Assembly (NCBI GenBank): GCA_964016885.1
Contig: OZ024742.1
Span: forward strand, 204,538,001 to 204,602,000
Direction of reading: 5' to 3'
Source of the DNA: Eledone cirrhosa
Lineage: Eukaryota
Length of the DNA: 64,000 nucleotides
The notes beneath the pieces are model-generated. The model worked only from the letters and a program-made list of their open reading frames with translations. It did not search any database and was not told the DNA's origin. Of the stretch, positions 18,453 to 64,000 are shown piece after piece (position 1 is the first letter of the stretch; every line of letters begins with the position of its first letter). The translations under genes and the position numbers were made by a program.

Positions 18453-18595
18453 TTCATTATTTAACGATCGTTTCTAGGACATATATGTGTTAGAATTAGC
18501 ATGCATATTCAAAAGATCTATGTACAAAATTATACAAACTATCAAGGAGAATATACATACCATCACATATATATGCTGTCTTCAGAAATAATGAA
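18453..18595 (-). ncRNA. type I hammerhead ribozyme (mirror of 27405-27547)
   Basis: Reverse complement has CUGAAGA ... GAAA-CGAUCG-UU with a 10-bp stem I. Confidence 0.8.
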
Positions 18596-21111
18596 GTATA
18601 TTTATTGATAATAACAACAATTCAAAATTACAGGTCTGTTTGGGAACAGATTTTAAATAGACCAATGAAATACATAAAAATTCATCAAGAAAATACAGTC
18701 AGGTGTGTGTATATATGTAAGTAAATTCGTTCACAGATATGCATAAAAATGTATGTTCACATGCATACGTATGTCGAAAAAGTGTATGTAAATATAAAAA
18801 TTTAGGGCTAATGTATCTGTATGTTTATAATCTACAGACAAAATATACATACATATACATATATACACACATATACATACATATATACACACATATACAT
18901 ACATTCATACACACACACGCATATATACATAAACACACACATACCTACGAACACACACATATATACACACACACACATACGTATATATTATTATTATAAC
19001 TATATGGATATTGAGGCGCACACATAAACACGGCCACACACACTTACATTTAGATGCAGAATTAAAAGGAGGTAAGGGAGTAAGTAATTAAAAGAGAGTG
19101 TCAAACTCAGCATATTTATAAAAATGTATCTATAAAGTTAGAAATAAAAAAAAAATTTTATAGAAGGAAAAAACTTAAAAACAGGGGAACAAAAAATAAG
19201 GGGGGGGTACGTACGTACACAGACGCGAATGTCTCACAAAAGAAATATAACGAAAACATAAAAAAACATAAAAGAGAGACATAAAATATACATGCTTATA
19301 TACATACGCACATTTACACATCCATACGTTCGATACATACATACGTACACACACACACATACACATACTTAACCTCACGCATATTAACCTGTTTGTATGC
19401 ATATACATAAAAACAAGTAAAATATACTCATACATATAAATACACACCGATATATATATATATATATATATATATATATATATATATATACATATACACA
19501 TACACACAACACACATATATACATATATGTACACACACATACACACATACATACACATACATATATATATATATATACATATATATATACACACATATAT
19601 ATACACACATATATACACACACACATACATATATATACATACACACACACATACCCATGTATATATACACACAACCACACACACACACACACTCAGACAT
19701 ACATAAATATAGAGACATACATACACACATATATATATATATATATATATATATATATATATATATATATATATATATATATATATATATATAAAAAATA
19801 AATAAATACACACAGTCAGACACTTATGCACATATATACACATACATACACACATCTCTACAAATACATATACATACACATACATACATACACATATATA
19901 TACATATATAAGGGAAAGAATTGGGAGTGTGTAACACTCCACTTATCAAATAGGCAGTATATATATATATATATATATATATATATATACACTCATACAC
20001 ACATATTTACATGCGCACATATGTATTTTTATACTCACATACAAACACACAAACATACATACTTACATACACATACATACATCCACGCTTACAAATACTA
20101 ATAATTATTGGGGGGGGGATTAAAATTATTAGTGGGAAATAGTAAATATAGGTTTCAAGGAACATAGAATATTAATCTGCATTTAAATCATAATATGTGT
20201 TTACATAGTAGTGTCAGTATTAGGAAATGGTATTTGTAAGAAAGAAGGCTAAATTATGTATTTTAATAAAAGTAGACTATTAATTATAGGTTAATTAAAG
20301 TAAAAATAGTTAATATATTAATTTCTAAGGTGTATACTACTTAGGTTTATAATATTTAAAGCGGAATTTTGAAGTTAAACAGTAGTAGAGTATTAATTAT
20401 AGCATAACTAAATTAAAAATATTAACATGATGGTATCAATTTTAGGAAATGAATTTTGTAATAGGGAAAGCCAAATTAAGTATTTCATCGGTAGTAGAAT
20501 ATTAATTATAGGTTAACTAAATTAAAAATTATATATTAATTTCTATAGTATATGTTAATTAGGTTTATAATAATTAAAGCAAAATTTTGTATTTTATCTA
20601 TAGTAGAATATAATTATAGGTTAAGTAAATTAAAATTAATCTATATATTTATTTGTAAAGAATATATTAATTAGGTAAATATTTAAAAGTGTTTCTCAGT
20701 TTATGATTACACGATATTCTGCAATCCATCTGTATTAGAATTTTAATTTTAAGCTAACTAAATTAAAATTATAGGTTAACTAAATTAAAATTAATTTATG
20801 AATTAATTTTAATTAAAAATATTAATTAGGTTTATAATATTAAAAAGTATTTCTCTGTTATTAATTACACGATATTTTGTTATATTTCATCTGTAAAGGA
20901 ATTTTAATAAAAGGTTAAATAAACTAAAATTAATCTATATATTAATTTCCAAAGTATATATTAATTATGTTAATAATATTTAAAAGTTTTTCACAGTTTA
21001 TGATTATACGATATTTTTTAATTTCATCTGTAGTAGAATTTTAATTAAATTAAAATTATAGGTTAACTACATTTAAATTAATTTATATATCAATTTCTAA
21101 AATATATATTA

Positions 21112-22493
21112 TTAATTAGGTTTATAATATTTAAATGTTTTTCTCAGTTTATGATTACACGATATAATTAATTCCTGTCGCTCATTTAATAGGATATCCT
21201 TAGATTTCATTATTTCAAATAGTTCTTGGGAACACAATCTACATTCATTTCTATTATTTTGATAAGGGGTGGCTCTTTTGAGCACACTCCAGGTCATATC
21301 ATATTCTATATTCTTATTTCTATAACTATTAATTTGTTCTGCTAGAGATGTTGTATTAGCCAGTGCGGCATTTTTAAAACTATGTTTGTGGGTATTAAAC
21401 CTTACCTTAAAATTGTTAGAAGTAGCTCCTATATATGAGCAAATAGAATCTTTAGTTTTAACTTTACATTTATAAACTATGTTATTAACAAGACAATTTC
21501 CTTTTAATGGGCAGTTTGCTTTGTTTCTACAGTTACAACCTTTCGTTAATTCTGTATTTGAGGAGATATTATGGTTAGTTTGATGTATTGGTGGTATACT
21601 TATGGTTTTTTTACATGTATATGCATTATAGGCACTTATATTTTGTTTTATGTTTTTGGTTGTTGAGTATGATAATTTAACTGTTGATCTATTTAAGATT
21701 TGATGGTATTTGTGGTTTGGCGGGAAGTTTTTCTCTAGGATATTAAAAATTTTTTTAGCTATATTATCCTTAATTTGTAAATTAAATGGAGCATTATACC
21801 AAGTAACTCGTCTATTACGGTTTCTATGTTGTTTATTGTTTTTATAGGATGCATCGTGATGTTTACTAGGAGGATTAATGTTAATGACCTCAGCACGCAC
21901 ATTTTTAGTTAGATTTATTGATTTAGGTGTTTTAGCTTGTTTATTAGGAGTTTTATTATTAACATTTATTAGAGTTGTATGATGAGTAGTTTTTTGAGAG
22001 TTACTATACTTTATATTAGAGGAGTTAGAGAAATTTGGTTTATGTTGGTATTTTGGGGTATAGTGTGAGTGGCATTTAGGTGTGTACTTTTCATTTGGTG
22101 TTTGTTGGTAATATTAGGTTGTATGTTTATAGTGTTATTAGTAGAAGGTATATATTCCAATCTATTTTTGTGGCCACTTCTATCTAGAGCTTCGTTATAG
22201 AAGATCGCATTTTTATCAAATACATCTTGGTTAGACGAAAGGTTAGAAATTCTAAGTGATATATTATATGCAAGGTTTTTAAGGATAGATTTAGGGTGAT
22301 TAGATTGTGAGTGTATGTAGTGTAAGTTTTGGTTGGGTTTATGGTAAGGTTGGTAGATACCCGTAGCTAAGTCTAAAGTTATATCTAGGAAATTAACTAC
22401 TTTACTTGTGTTTTCAAAAGTAATATGAAGACTATAATAGTCTTTAAGGAAAGTTCTAATAAGCTTTTTGTTTTTTTCTATTTCTGAGAGGCT
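21112..22493 (-). pseudogene. 5'-truncated PLE ORF (RT thumb, linker and GIY-YIG endonuclease)
   Basis: Nearly identical to 23611-24992. It has one 1-nt deletion near 22040. Confidence 0.92.
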
Positions 22494-22549
22494 TTTTGTT
22501 TTTTTCTATTTCTGAGAGGCTCTTTCTCTTGTCCATTATCCATATCACA

Positions 22550-62349: not shown

Positions 62350-62396
62350 TGCTCCGATGATCACAGACATCCCTCTGGGAGAAACAATTGTCAGCA
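62350..62396 (+). ncRNA. type I hammerhead ribozyme (U4C variant)
   Basis: TGCT-CCGATGA-TCACAGA CATCCC TCTGGGA-GAAA-CAATTG-TC-AGCA. Confidence 0.78.
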
Positions 62397-62569
62397 AATA
62401 AATGTATTAAACTAAGATTTGATTGTTTTAACACGTTGTATCTCGGCTCTGTAAACACTTGATCATTTGCATTGAGCCTTTTGTCATACCGTTAACCGGC
62501 TACTACTTAGTACTATACTACCCTCCATATTTATAATTATATATTAAACATATATAAGTATAAATATTG

Positions 62570-63482
62570 TTATTATTATTATATATATATACATAATATA
62601 TATATATATATATTATATATATATATATATTATATATTATATATATATTATATATATATATATAATATAAATAATATATATATAAATAATGTATATATAT
62701 ATATATGTATATAATGTATATATATATGTATATAATGTATATATATATATATGTATATATATATATATATGTATATATATATATATATTATATATTATAT
62801 ATATATTATATATATATATAATATAAATAATATATATATAAATAATGTATATATATATATAAATAATATATATATATATTATATTATATATATATTATAT
62901 ATATATATAATATATATATTATATATTATATATATCTTATATATATATATATAATATATATAATATATATATAAATAATGTATATATATATATATAAATA
63001 ATATATATATATATATATATATATTATATATATATTATATATATATATAATATATATATATAATATATATAAATAATATATATATATATTATATATATAT
63101 ATAATATATATAAATAAAATATATATATATATATTATATATATATATAATATATATATATAATATATATAAATAATATATATTTATATATATATTATATA
63201 TAATATATATATATATATATATATATATATATATATATATATATATATAATATATATATATATATATATATAATATATATATATATATAATATATATATA
63301 TATATATAATATATATATATATATATATATATATAATATATATATATATATAATATATATATATATATATATATATATAGAGAGAGAGAGAGAGAGAGAG
63401 CGTCGAGAGAGAGAGAGAGAGAGGGAGAGAGAGAGAGAGAGAGAGAGAGAGAGAGAGAGAGAGAGAGCAGAGAGAGAGAGAG
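62570..63482. repeat. long imperfect (TA)n tract followed by (GA)n
   Basis: Direct reading. Confidence 0.97.
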
Positions 63483-64000
63483 AAATCTACCAAAATATAC
63501 GGTAGTGTCCAATCCGTATGAAGAACTCAATGTAATCCAAATATCATGAAAAGCGATGTATTCAAAATTTTTTCGATGAAAAACACAGGAAAACAGAGTC
63601 AGATAAATTTATAACAATAATGAATAAAAACAAAGAAACAGTTCCTTATATTAAAAAATTCATCATTTTACGATCGTTTCTAGCATATATATGTGTGTGT
63701 TGGTATGTATATCATATAGATCTATGTAAAAGTTTTACAAACTATCAGAGGGAATATACATACCTACACATATATATGCTGTCTTTAGAAATAATTGTTT
63801 CTACTTTTGGCACAAGGCCAGCAATTACCCAGTGTATTACTGGTACTTTATTTTATCGACCCCGTAAAGATGAAAAGCAAAGTCAACCTCGGCGGGATAG
63901 AAATAATGATATTTGTTTATTGAAAAAAGCCAACAAAGATTTAATAAAATAGGTCGGTTTGGTAACAGGTTTTGAATTGACCAATAGAAAAGTAGTAAGT
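63483..64000 (-). mobile_element. diverged relative of the PLE pLTR at 18256-18670, with a decayed hammerhead (63663-63795) and a SINE A insertion (63796-63897)
   Basis: Shares CGGTAGTGTCCAATCCGTATGAAGAACTCAATGTAATCC with 18280-18318. The core reads CTAAAGA. TSD TAGAAATAAT flanks the SINE. Confidence 0.88.

What the first reader, a model, noticed from the sequence alone, without database searches (positions are those of the whole stretch)
18453..63795. Repertoire of hammerhead ribozymes with covarying palindromic stem III and long stem II across at least five retroelement families
Seen: nine type I hammerhead copies of five unrelated sequence types, at 27405/18453/63663, 27732, 29835/29617, 30573/32515 and 62350. 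All share stem I - CUGANGA (CCGAUGA at 62350, decayed CUAAAGA at 63663) - stem II - GAAA - 6-nt palindrome - UH. The palindrome differs in each type but is always self-complementary (CGAUCG, UGAUCA, UAUAUA, UGCGCA, CAAUUG), and the stem II region spans 20-104 nt. Established: PLE pseudo-LTRs carry minimal hammerheads whose palindromic stem III favours dimeric cleavage. Inference: the family-specific palindrome could act as a self-recognition code so that only same-family pLTR RNAs dimerise and cleave. The long stem II would escape standard descriptors.
Basis: partly seen in the sequence, partly recalled or inferred. Interest (0 to 1): 0.78.

Follow-up and report, generated by a model that had tools for sequence, protein, structure and literature searches.

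The report
Hydra-clade Penelope hammerheads, long stem II
These are real hammerhead-ribozyme motifs at the tail ends of Penelope-type jumping genes, a known arrangement in which two RNA copies likely pair up to cut; their palindromes are often shared between related families, so they are not a private family code, but some carry an unusually long, conserved extra stem of untested function.

Summary
All nine motifs are present as described (9 observed, 0.007 expected). They come from six insertions of multi-copy families. Four of the five types (A, C, D, E) sit in the 3' end (pLTR) of Hydra-clade Penelope-like elements (PLEs); type B lies in a 2.25-kb unit with no ORF found. Palindromic stem III, its variation between families and dimer cleavage are in print (Perreault 2011, Cervera 2014, Craig 2021), and this scan found the same kind of motif before in other genomes. 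A 1.2-Mb genome sample held 64 such six-base-palindrome hammerheads (shuffles 0). The self-recognition code is not supported at family level: 23 of 32 sequence clusters share their exact hexamer with another cluster, and close relatives usually stay cross-compatible. Most distant pairs, including the window's five types, are predicted incompatible, which reads best as a by-product of divergence. What seems not described in the papers read: stem II regions of 60-116 nt (16 of 64 motifs; covariation shown in the A lineage), a pyrimidine mismatch kept at stem II pair 4 (18 of 32 clusters) and a family-wide U4C core. Cleavage was not tested.

The parts
18258..22493 (-). Family A Hydra-clade PLE, inverted 5'-truncated copy (RT thumb, GIY-YIG, 2.5-kb 3' UTR, long 3' end with tail)
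   Evidence: self-BLAST 94-95% to 23611-27610; tblastn; ends
18453..18595 (-). Type A hammerhead, CUGAAGA, 104-nt stem II, CGAUCG, predicted cut after 18463
   Evidence: identical to the 27405 copy
22505..27607 (+). Family A Hydra-clade PLE, sense copy: frameshifted ORF (RWR, DKT, YRDD, CxCx5C, C-terminal GIY-YIG; about 22550-24992) and 3' UTR ending in (TA)n
   Evidence: motifs compared by eye with Craig 2021 section 11 and Hydra-1_Obim
27405..27547 (+). Type A hammerhead, 10-bp stem I, 104-nt stem II, CGAUCG, predicted cut after 27537
   Evidence: (z -4.2); 904 first-look candidates in the genome
27684..29552 (-). Family B: part of a ~2.25-kb unit with no ORF found; the 3' end abuts (TA)n; inverted tail at 29417-29552
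27732..27789 (-). Type B hammerhead, CUGAUGA, 31-nt stem II, UGAUCA, predicted cut after 27736
   Evidence: (209 candidates)
29568..30031 (.). Family C short insertion: inverted pair of pLTR ends between (TA)n tracts
   Evidence: a full pLTR-ORF-pLTR copy is L191
29617..29682 (-). Type C hammerhead, UAUAUA, predicted cut after 29625
29835..29900 (+). Type C hammerhead, UAUAUA, predicted cut after 29892
   Evidence: (880 candidates)
30448..34306 (-). Family D Hydra-clade PLE: downstream pLTR 30448-31150, broken RT ORF 31036-32370, upstream pLTR/3' UTR 32390-33507, inverted endonuclease piece 33502-34306 (+)
30573..30643 (-). Type D hammerhead, CUGACGA, 36-nt stem II, UGCGCA, predicted cut after 30581
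32515..32585 (-). Type D hammerhead, same strand, 1,942 nt upstream of the first: the one pair in the window able to dimerise in cis
61557..62538 (+). Family E 3' UTR/pLTR fragment ending in (TA)n; in two other loci the same 3' end follows one Hydra-like GIY-YIG gene
   Evidence: L196; L332 with L129
62350..62396 (+). Type E hammerhead, family-wide CCGAUGA (U4C) core, 20-nt stem II, CAAUUG, predicted cut after 62392
   Evidence: (1958 candidates)
63480..63795 (-). 3' end of an A-lineage subfamily (101-nt stem II); hammerhead 63662-63795 with a privately decayed core CUAAAGA

Best explanation
The nine motifs are type I hammerhead sequences in the 3' ends (pseudo-LTRs) of Hydra-clade Penelope-like retroelements and one likely non-autonomous derivative, and they are predicted to cut mainly as two-copy dimers. 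Shown: the anatomy, copy numbers, ORF links, maintained self-complementarity and covarying stems. Predicted: as a monomer stem III is only 2 bp plus a tetraloop and is unstable, while two copies swap stem I and pair A-N6-U over 8 bp. Inferred: the ribozyme is off in a solo 3' end, so reverse transcription can start 40-210 nt downstream and copy it intact. It would switch on when tandem pLTRs, or the element's own protein, bring two copies together, processing read-through transcripts into unit-length RNA. The palindrome only has to stay self-complementary. It drifts through G.U intermediates and is inherited by lineage, so incompatibility between distant families is likely a by-product rather than a selected code. 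The long stem II is likely a tolerated but selected extension.
For: Motifs real. With no stem III rule imposed, 24 of 25 six-base spacers in 600 kb were self-complementary. 64 motifs in 1.2 Mb versus 0 in shuffles. A, C and D have the hammerhead 231-449 nt upstream of an ORF start and 1-2.5 kb downstream of an endonuclease end on the same strand; E follows one Hydra-like endonuclease gene in two loci. Monomer stem III hairpin is +2.4 to +4.7 kcal/mol; the homodimer lies below two active monomers in 32 of 32 clusters. Sister clusters switch palindromes while staying palindromic (CAAUUG/CGGCCG at 72% identity, CAAUUG/CAGCUG at 71%), and G.U forms such as UAUGUA are fixed in 5 clusters. Copies of all five types end at two distances past the cut site (A 70/208, B 52-60/199, C 49/139, D 43/133, E 46/183 nt). 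This fits the two reverse-transcription start sites, the uncut template and the protein-assisted ribozyme reported for Poseidon (PMC11167929). Dimer model and palindromes are in print (PMC4209133; PMC3088659).
Against: No cleavage was measured. The homodimer is below the monomers' own minimum-energy folds in only 23 of 32 clusters; type B is among the 9 exceptions. A '2 bp plus tetraloop' stem III gave 22% monomer cleavage in an axolotl ribozyme (PMC7229834), so monomer activity is possible. Most genomic copies are solo or in inverted pairs that cannot dimerise in cis. 461 of 496 heterodimers are more than 5 kcal/mol worse than homodimers, so lineage-level specificity is real in the model. Clusters are not independent lineages and no RT tree was built. 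In Poseidon, ribozyme mutants did not reduce insertion in vitro.
Confidence: 0.7

Rival explanations
1. Self-recognition code: family-specific palindromes were selected so that only same-family RNAs dimerise and cleave.
For: The five window types are mutually incompatible. 15 different hexamers occur among 32 clusters. Five to nine sister comparisons show switched palindromes. With stem I included, only 22 of 496 pairs cross-pair in both stems on both sides.
Against: 23 of 32 clusters share an identical hexamer (UAUAUA 6, CAAUUG 5, UAUGUA 5, CGAUCG 3). Full stem III compatibility is six times the uniform expectation and rises with relatedness (22 of 28 pairs above 60% identity), the opposite of character displacement. 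A, C and E each have a foreign cluster within 1 kcal/mol of homodimer energy.
Confidence: 0.12
2. The motifs work mainly as monomers chaperoned by the element's RT-endonuclease protein. The long stem II with its invariant apical loop and the pair-4 pyrimidine mismatch would be the protein or tertiary docking sites, and the palindrome would be secondary.
For: The Poseidon ribozyme cleaved only with its protein. The A-lineage apical GAU/AUC and UGUA/UACA helices hardly vary while flanking helices covary. A Y.Y mismatch sits at 10.4-11.4 in 18 of 32 clusters between well-paired neighbours.
Against: The inner two palindrome pairs cannot form in a monomer, yet they are kept in 24 of 25 unbiased six-base spacers and covary between lineages. 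No binding data exist.
Confidence: 0.13
3. The motifs are catalytically dead relics, preserved only because copies are young.
For: Family A and C copies are 99-100% identical. Core versus flank conservation differs little within B and E (1.2% vs 2.1%; 2.1% vs 3.1%). 8 of 9 Xenopus retrozyme dimers did not cleave in a preprint.
Against: Core, stems and palindrome persist across 32 clusters that are mostly below 60% identical elsewhere in the motif, with compensatory changes.
Confidence: 0.05

Closest known systems
Hammerheads of Hydra-clade PLEs (Craig et al. 2021, PMC8557442, section 11 and File S2)
   Same: Type I hammerhead near the 3' end of RWK/DKT, C-terminal GIY-YIG elements inserted in (TA)n; self-complementary stem III region whose sequence differs between families of one species; frequent unpaired base(s) at the foot of stem II.
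   Different: The published Hydra rows have 7-8-nt spacers, mostly interrupted palindromes with a 1-3-nt centre, and stem II regions of at most about 25 nt. Here the spacer is a perfect 6-nt palindrome, stem II reaches 116 nt, elements are 3.8-5 kb and tails are about 90-140 nt rather than 30-40.
[quoted passage not shown]
   Same: pLTR location, many families per genome with covariation, consensus 'GAAAN Palind NU H', dimer model, mostly solo copies.
   Different: Their helix II is 7-8 bp with a conserved G10.1-C11.1 pair. Here 10.1-11.1 is paired in only 15 of 32 clusters, pair 4 is often Y.Y, and stem II can be long or branched.
Repeat-type dimeric hammerheads of newt, axolotl, Aedes and non-LTR retrozymes (PMC3088659 Fig. 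S8; PMC7229834; bioRxiv 10.64898/2026.07.22.740005)
   Same: Short stem III with a palindromic loop completed in a dimer; non-autonomous PLE derivatives, like family B.
   Different: Retrozymes are 150-450-bp tandem repeats with canonical stem lengths. These motifs are dispersed in 2-5-kb elements.

Membership tests
Type I hammerhead ribozyme | Core CUGANGA ... GAAA ... UH | tested here: met
   7 of 9 exact; type E has U4C family-wide; the 63788 copy has a private G5A
Type I hammerhead ribozyme | Stem I (open end) and stem II flank the core | tested here: met
   Stem I 4-10 bp; stem II pairs with covariation
Type I hammerhead ribozyme | Stable intramolecular stem III | tested here: not met
   2 bp plus tetraloop, +2.4 to +4.7 kcal/mol; 8 bp only in a dimer, as in the published dimeric subclass
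Type I hammerhead ribozyme | Match to Rfam hammerhead models | tested here: not met
   No hammerhead family at E<=1 in the whole window or E<=10 in 27300-32700
Type I hammerhead ribozyme | Self-cleavage after H17 | not testable with these tools
   Needs an in vitro assay or end mapping
PLE pLTR dimeric hammerhead | Self-complementary stem III/loop III | tested here: met
   24 of 25 six-base spacers with no palindrome rule imposed
PLE pLTR dimeric hammerhead | Lies in a pLTR flanking an RT-GIY-YIG ORF | tested here: met
   A, C, D on both sides of the ORF; E downstream of an endonuclease gene in two loci; B not linked to any ORF
Hydra clade of PLEs | RWK motif and DKT in place of DKG | tested here: met
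   RWR and SDKT in A and C; RWI and SNKT in the decayed D copy
Hydra clade of PLEs | C-terminal GIY-YIG with CxCX5C linker, and CxxC and CxH around the conserved E and N | tested here: met
   A: CNCRNKANC, IVYKC..YIG, CRLC..E, N..SCNH; Pfam and PDB gave no significant hit, so this rests on motifs compared by eye with Craig's sequences
Hydra clade of PLEs | Insertion into (TA)n | tested here: met
   3' ends abut (TA)n in most copies of all five types
Hydra clade of PLEs | Length generally below 3 kb | tested here: not met
   C repeat unit 3.8 kb (L191); A about 5 kb; a descriptive rather than defining trait
Hydra clade of PLEs | Placement in the Hydra clade of an RT phylogeny | not tested
   Reference proteins were only viewed in the supplement
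Family-specific recognition code | Each family has its own palindrome | tested here: not met
   23 of 32 clusters share an identical hexamer

The most novel reading that the evidence does not exclude
Hydra-clade PLEs in this genome have turned the dimeric hammerhead into a gated, addressed switch. Stem I plus the stem III palindrome form a lineage-level RNA address (most cross-lineage dimers are predicted to fail). A conserved pyrimidine mismatch at stem II pair 4 and long, independently built stem II extensions with invariant apical loops bind the element's own RT-endonuclease, which licenses cleavage only of cognate RNA.
Probability: 0.15. Interest if true: 0.65.

Novelty: new variant of a known kind. 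Interest (0 to 1): 0.3.

Why it matters
The role of PLE hammerheads is still open (PMC8557442 says so; PMC11167929 found cleavage dispensable in vitro). This genome offers roughly 160,000 six-base-palindrome motifs (53 per Mb extrapolated, rough), young families with near-identical copies, and natural pairs predicted to be compatible or incompatible. That makes the dimer and specificity questions directly testable. Stem II regions of 60-116 nt in a quarter of the motifs mean that descriptors with short stem II likely undercount PLE ribozymes. The general arrangement, however, is known.

Tried and rejected
Rfam found no hammerhead family, only microsatellite matches to microRNA models. Pfam and PDB gave no significant match for the ORF pieces. 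Expression: no RNA holder listed, which says nothing either way; contigs of four unlabelled runs laid on type A covered it in pieces and added nothing on cleavage. Lunse et al. 2016 on PLE hammerhead dimers is not held; I know it only through the review PMC6765202, and it may already cover core variants or heterodimers. One of the two supplementary files of PMC4209133 was not searchable and figures are not held. An ORF link for family B was sought and rejected: the ORF beside the B hammerhead in L192/L193 and L218/L331 belongs to another Hydra family, and the ORF in L215 to a different abundant PLE. An apparent second core (CUGAAGA, 65-nt stem II) in some type E copies is an alternative parse and was dropped. 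RNAalifold on 7 sequences of the 96-97-nt lineage did not return the hammerhead fold, though it found double-sided changes in the first inner hairpin. Single-strand folds of B, C and E are no more stable than shuffles. Artefact: 'the palindrome is imposed by the search' was rejected. 'Octopus' and 'cephalopod' in my searches were guesses from the recalled repeat landscape; the host was not determined.
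Full report
Observation. Each has 4-10 bp of stem I next to the core and a pairable stem II. In 300 local dinucleotide shuffles the full pattern occurred 0.007 times on average, at most once. The three pairs (A 18463/27537, C 29625/29892, D 30581/32523) are letter-identical and belong to one insertion each, so there are six insertions. 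I call the types A (CGAUCG), B (UGAUCA), C (UAUAUA), D (UGCGCA) and E (CAAUUG).

Context. The window lies in a 3.0-Gb genome; the host was not determined. The ORF pieces at 21.1-25.0 kb and 31.0-34.1 kb encode an RT with RWR, DKT and YRDD motifs, followed by a CxCx5C linker and a GIY-YIG domain. These are the features that Craig et al. give for the Hydra clade of Penelope-like elements (PMC8557442, section 11), and the sequences resemble Hydra-1_Obim by eye. Pfam and PDB did not recognise them, and no tree was built. Own-genome searches returned 904 (A), 209 (B), 880 (C), 8 (D), 1958 (E) and 413 (the 63.7-kb A subfamily) first-look candidates, which are not copy numbers. For A, C and D the hammerhead lies both 231-449 nt upstream of an ORF start and 1-2.5 kb downstream of an endonuclease end, the tandem pLTR layout; L191 is a pLTR-ORF-pLTR copy of C. 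The E 3' end follows the same Hydra-like endonuclease gene in two loci. B is a ~2.25-kb unit without detectable ORF; three apparent ORF links proved to be other elements. CCGAUGA is the family state of E (31 of 32 hits); CUAAAGA at 63788 is private.

Census. I took 120 evenly spaced 10-kb stretches (1.2 Mb). On the first 60, with no rule on stem III, 24 of 25 six-base spacers were self-complementary (15 Watson-Crick, 9 with G.U) against about 0.3 six-base hits in shuffles. On all 120, with only the 15.2-16.2 pair required, there were 64 six-base-palindrome motifs in 34 stretches, plus 40 four-base, 8 eight-base and other classes; five shuffles gave none with a 4-8-base palindrome. 16 of the 64 have a stem II region of 60 nt or more. 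Extrapolation gives roughly 160,000 per genome, with clustering caveats.

The code idea. Pooling all loci held at that point and clustering at 80% identity over stems and flanks (core and palindrome left out) gave 32 clusters with six-base palindromes; hits of class 'other' except GAAC/GGAC were dropped first. Hexamers: UAUAUA 6, CAAUUG 5, UAUGUA 5, CGAUCG 3, CAUAUG 2, CCAUGG 2, and nine singletons, so 23 of 32 share one exactly. 96 of 496 pairs pair fully in stem III, against 15 +/- 4 for a uniform draw from the 32 Y..R palindromes. Compatibility rises with relatedness (18 of 135 pairs below 40% identity, 22 of 28 above 60%), and the nearest relative is compatible in 23 of 32. In a double hammerhead stem I is also swapped; 22 of 496 pairs have at least 4 bp of stem I on both sides as well. 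A, C and E each have a foreign cluster within 1 kcal/mol of homodimer energy, D within 2.5, and B none within 7. Against my reading: the window's five types are mutually incompatible (12-36 kcal/mol), 461 of 496 pairs are more than 5 kcal/mol worse than homodimers, and some sisters did switch palindromes. Clusters are not independent lineages. The pattern fits inheritance by lineage under a plain need for self-complementarity. It does not show selection for private codes.

Mechanism. The monomer stem III (2 bp plus tetraloop) is +2.4 to +4.7 kcal/mol; the 8-bp dimer helix is -0.8 to -14. The homodimer beats two active monomers in 32 of 32 clusters, but beats the monomers' own best folds in only 23 of 32. 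All five types end at two distances past the predicted cut (A 70/208, B 52-60/199, C 49/139, D 43/133, E 46/183 nt), so the template's 3' ribozyme was uncut when copied (inferred). This matches Poseidon, where reverse transcription starts at two internal sites on unprocessed RNA and the ribozyme needs the element's protein (PMC11167929; part 1 and passages read). The D copy has two same-strand motifs 1,942 nt apart that could dimerise in cis. The A and C pairs are inverted and cannot.

Stem II. In the A lineage (four subfamilies, 101-116 nt) the long stem II folds well (z -4.2). On 9 sequences, 91.7% of cells pair and 7 pairs show double-sided changes; 0-2 of 500 shuffles reach these values, and slid controls pair 24-54%. 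The structure came from one member and the sample is small. The apical GAU/AUC and UGUA/UACA helices are nearly invariant. A second lineage (96-97 nt) folds singly into a branched stem II, though RNAalifold did not recover the hammerhead fold for it. Further clusters have 60-63, 78 and 91 nt. Across the 32 clusters, stem II pairs 2, 3, 5, 6 and 7 are paired in 31, 31, 27, 28 and 29, but pair 4 in only 12, with a pyrimidine-pyrimidine mismatch in 18 (12 C.C); A, B, C and D have it, E does not. The descriptor did not single out that position, but shared ancestry inflates the count.

What is known. Cervera and De la Pena 2014 (PMC4209133; parts 1-2 of 4 and supplement passages) report pLTR hammerheads, many covarying families per genome, palindromic helix III and weak dimer cleavage. 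Perreault 2011 (PMC3088659; passages and section 8) shows palindromic stem III/loop III and the dimer model. Craig 2021 (passages, section 11, supplement parts 1-2 and passages) tabulates Hydra hammerheads with family-varying, mostly 7-nt interrupted palindromes and short stem II. I also read passages of PMC6765202, PMC7229834 and PMC6431247, and part 1 plus passages of bioRxiv 10.64898/2026.07.22.740005. Seven literature searches (listings only) and those readings showed no report of 60-116-nt stem II, a conserved pair-4 mismatch, or a test of a palindrome code in PLE hammerheads. Lunse 2016 and the figures could not be seen. Earlier notes of this scan report the same kind of motif in other genomes and call it known; none matched this genome or sequence.

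Verdict. A correct observation of a known kind of ribozyme in a known clade of elements. The headline inference (a family code) is not supported at family level. The long covarying stem II, the pair-4 mismatch and the family-wide core variants make it a modest new variant worth a bench test. Interest 0.3.

Noticed in passing
L192 about 3625-3675; L193; L139; L277: An abundant Hydra-clade family carries a hammerhead with core CAGAAGA (U4A), a short stem II and a stable, non-palindromic 5-bp stem III, i.e. a likely monomer-type ribozyme with a core variant.
   Followed up: partly
L255, L331 1-2900, L290, L151, L013: Hammerheads with 4-base palindromes (CUAG, CGCG) and 14-nt stem II; the CGCG type sits in ~310-bp tandem arrays, like non-LTR retrozymes.
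   Followed up: no
L007:1155, L143, L161, L181 and others: An abundant hammerhead-like class with a non-palindromic 4-base spacer GAAC/GGAC (15 hits in 1.2 Mb): G-C closing pair with a 2-nt loop.
   Followed up: no
L157, L158, L162, L085, L120, L010, L147: Further classes with 7-base (CCGCCGG, CCACUGG) and 8-base (CUAAUUAG) self-complementary spacers; the 7-base type resembles published Hydra hammerheads.
   Followed up: no
window 18258-18390, 29417-29552, 29950-30031, 62440-62538: The PLE 'tail' (difference between the two 3' ends) is about 90-140 nt in these families, longer than the 30-40 bp given by Craig 2021.
   Followed up: partly
L215:377-1474 (-): An abundant, different C-terminal GIY-YIG PLE with a CX4CxxC-type linker (Neptune-like by motif), present in many sampled loci.
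   Followed up: no
window 1-8988: A 36-bp tandem satellite of about 241 copies, 90% matches.
   Followed up: no
window 9939-10128, 15085-16180, 45850-47880, 54050-54500, 60930-61440, 63790-63900: Many copies of a ~200-bp short interspersed repeat, some tandem or inverted; one interrupts the decayed A-type hammerhead just upstream of stem I at 63795.
   Followed up: no
window 35258-35628 (-): A further GIY-YIG fragment of another Hydra-like family (35-46% identical to A), without its own hammerhead detected in the window.
   Followed up: no
window 20200-21165 and 24939-25905: The 3' UTR of family A begins with degenerate 109-140-bp AT-rich tandem repeats right after the stop codon.
   Followed up: no
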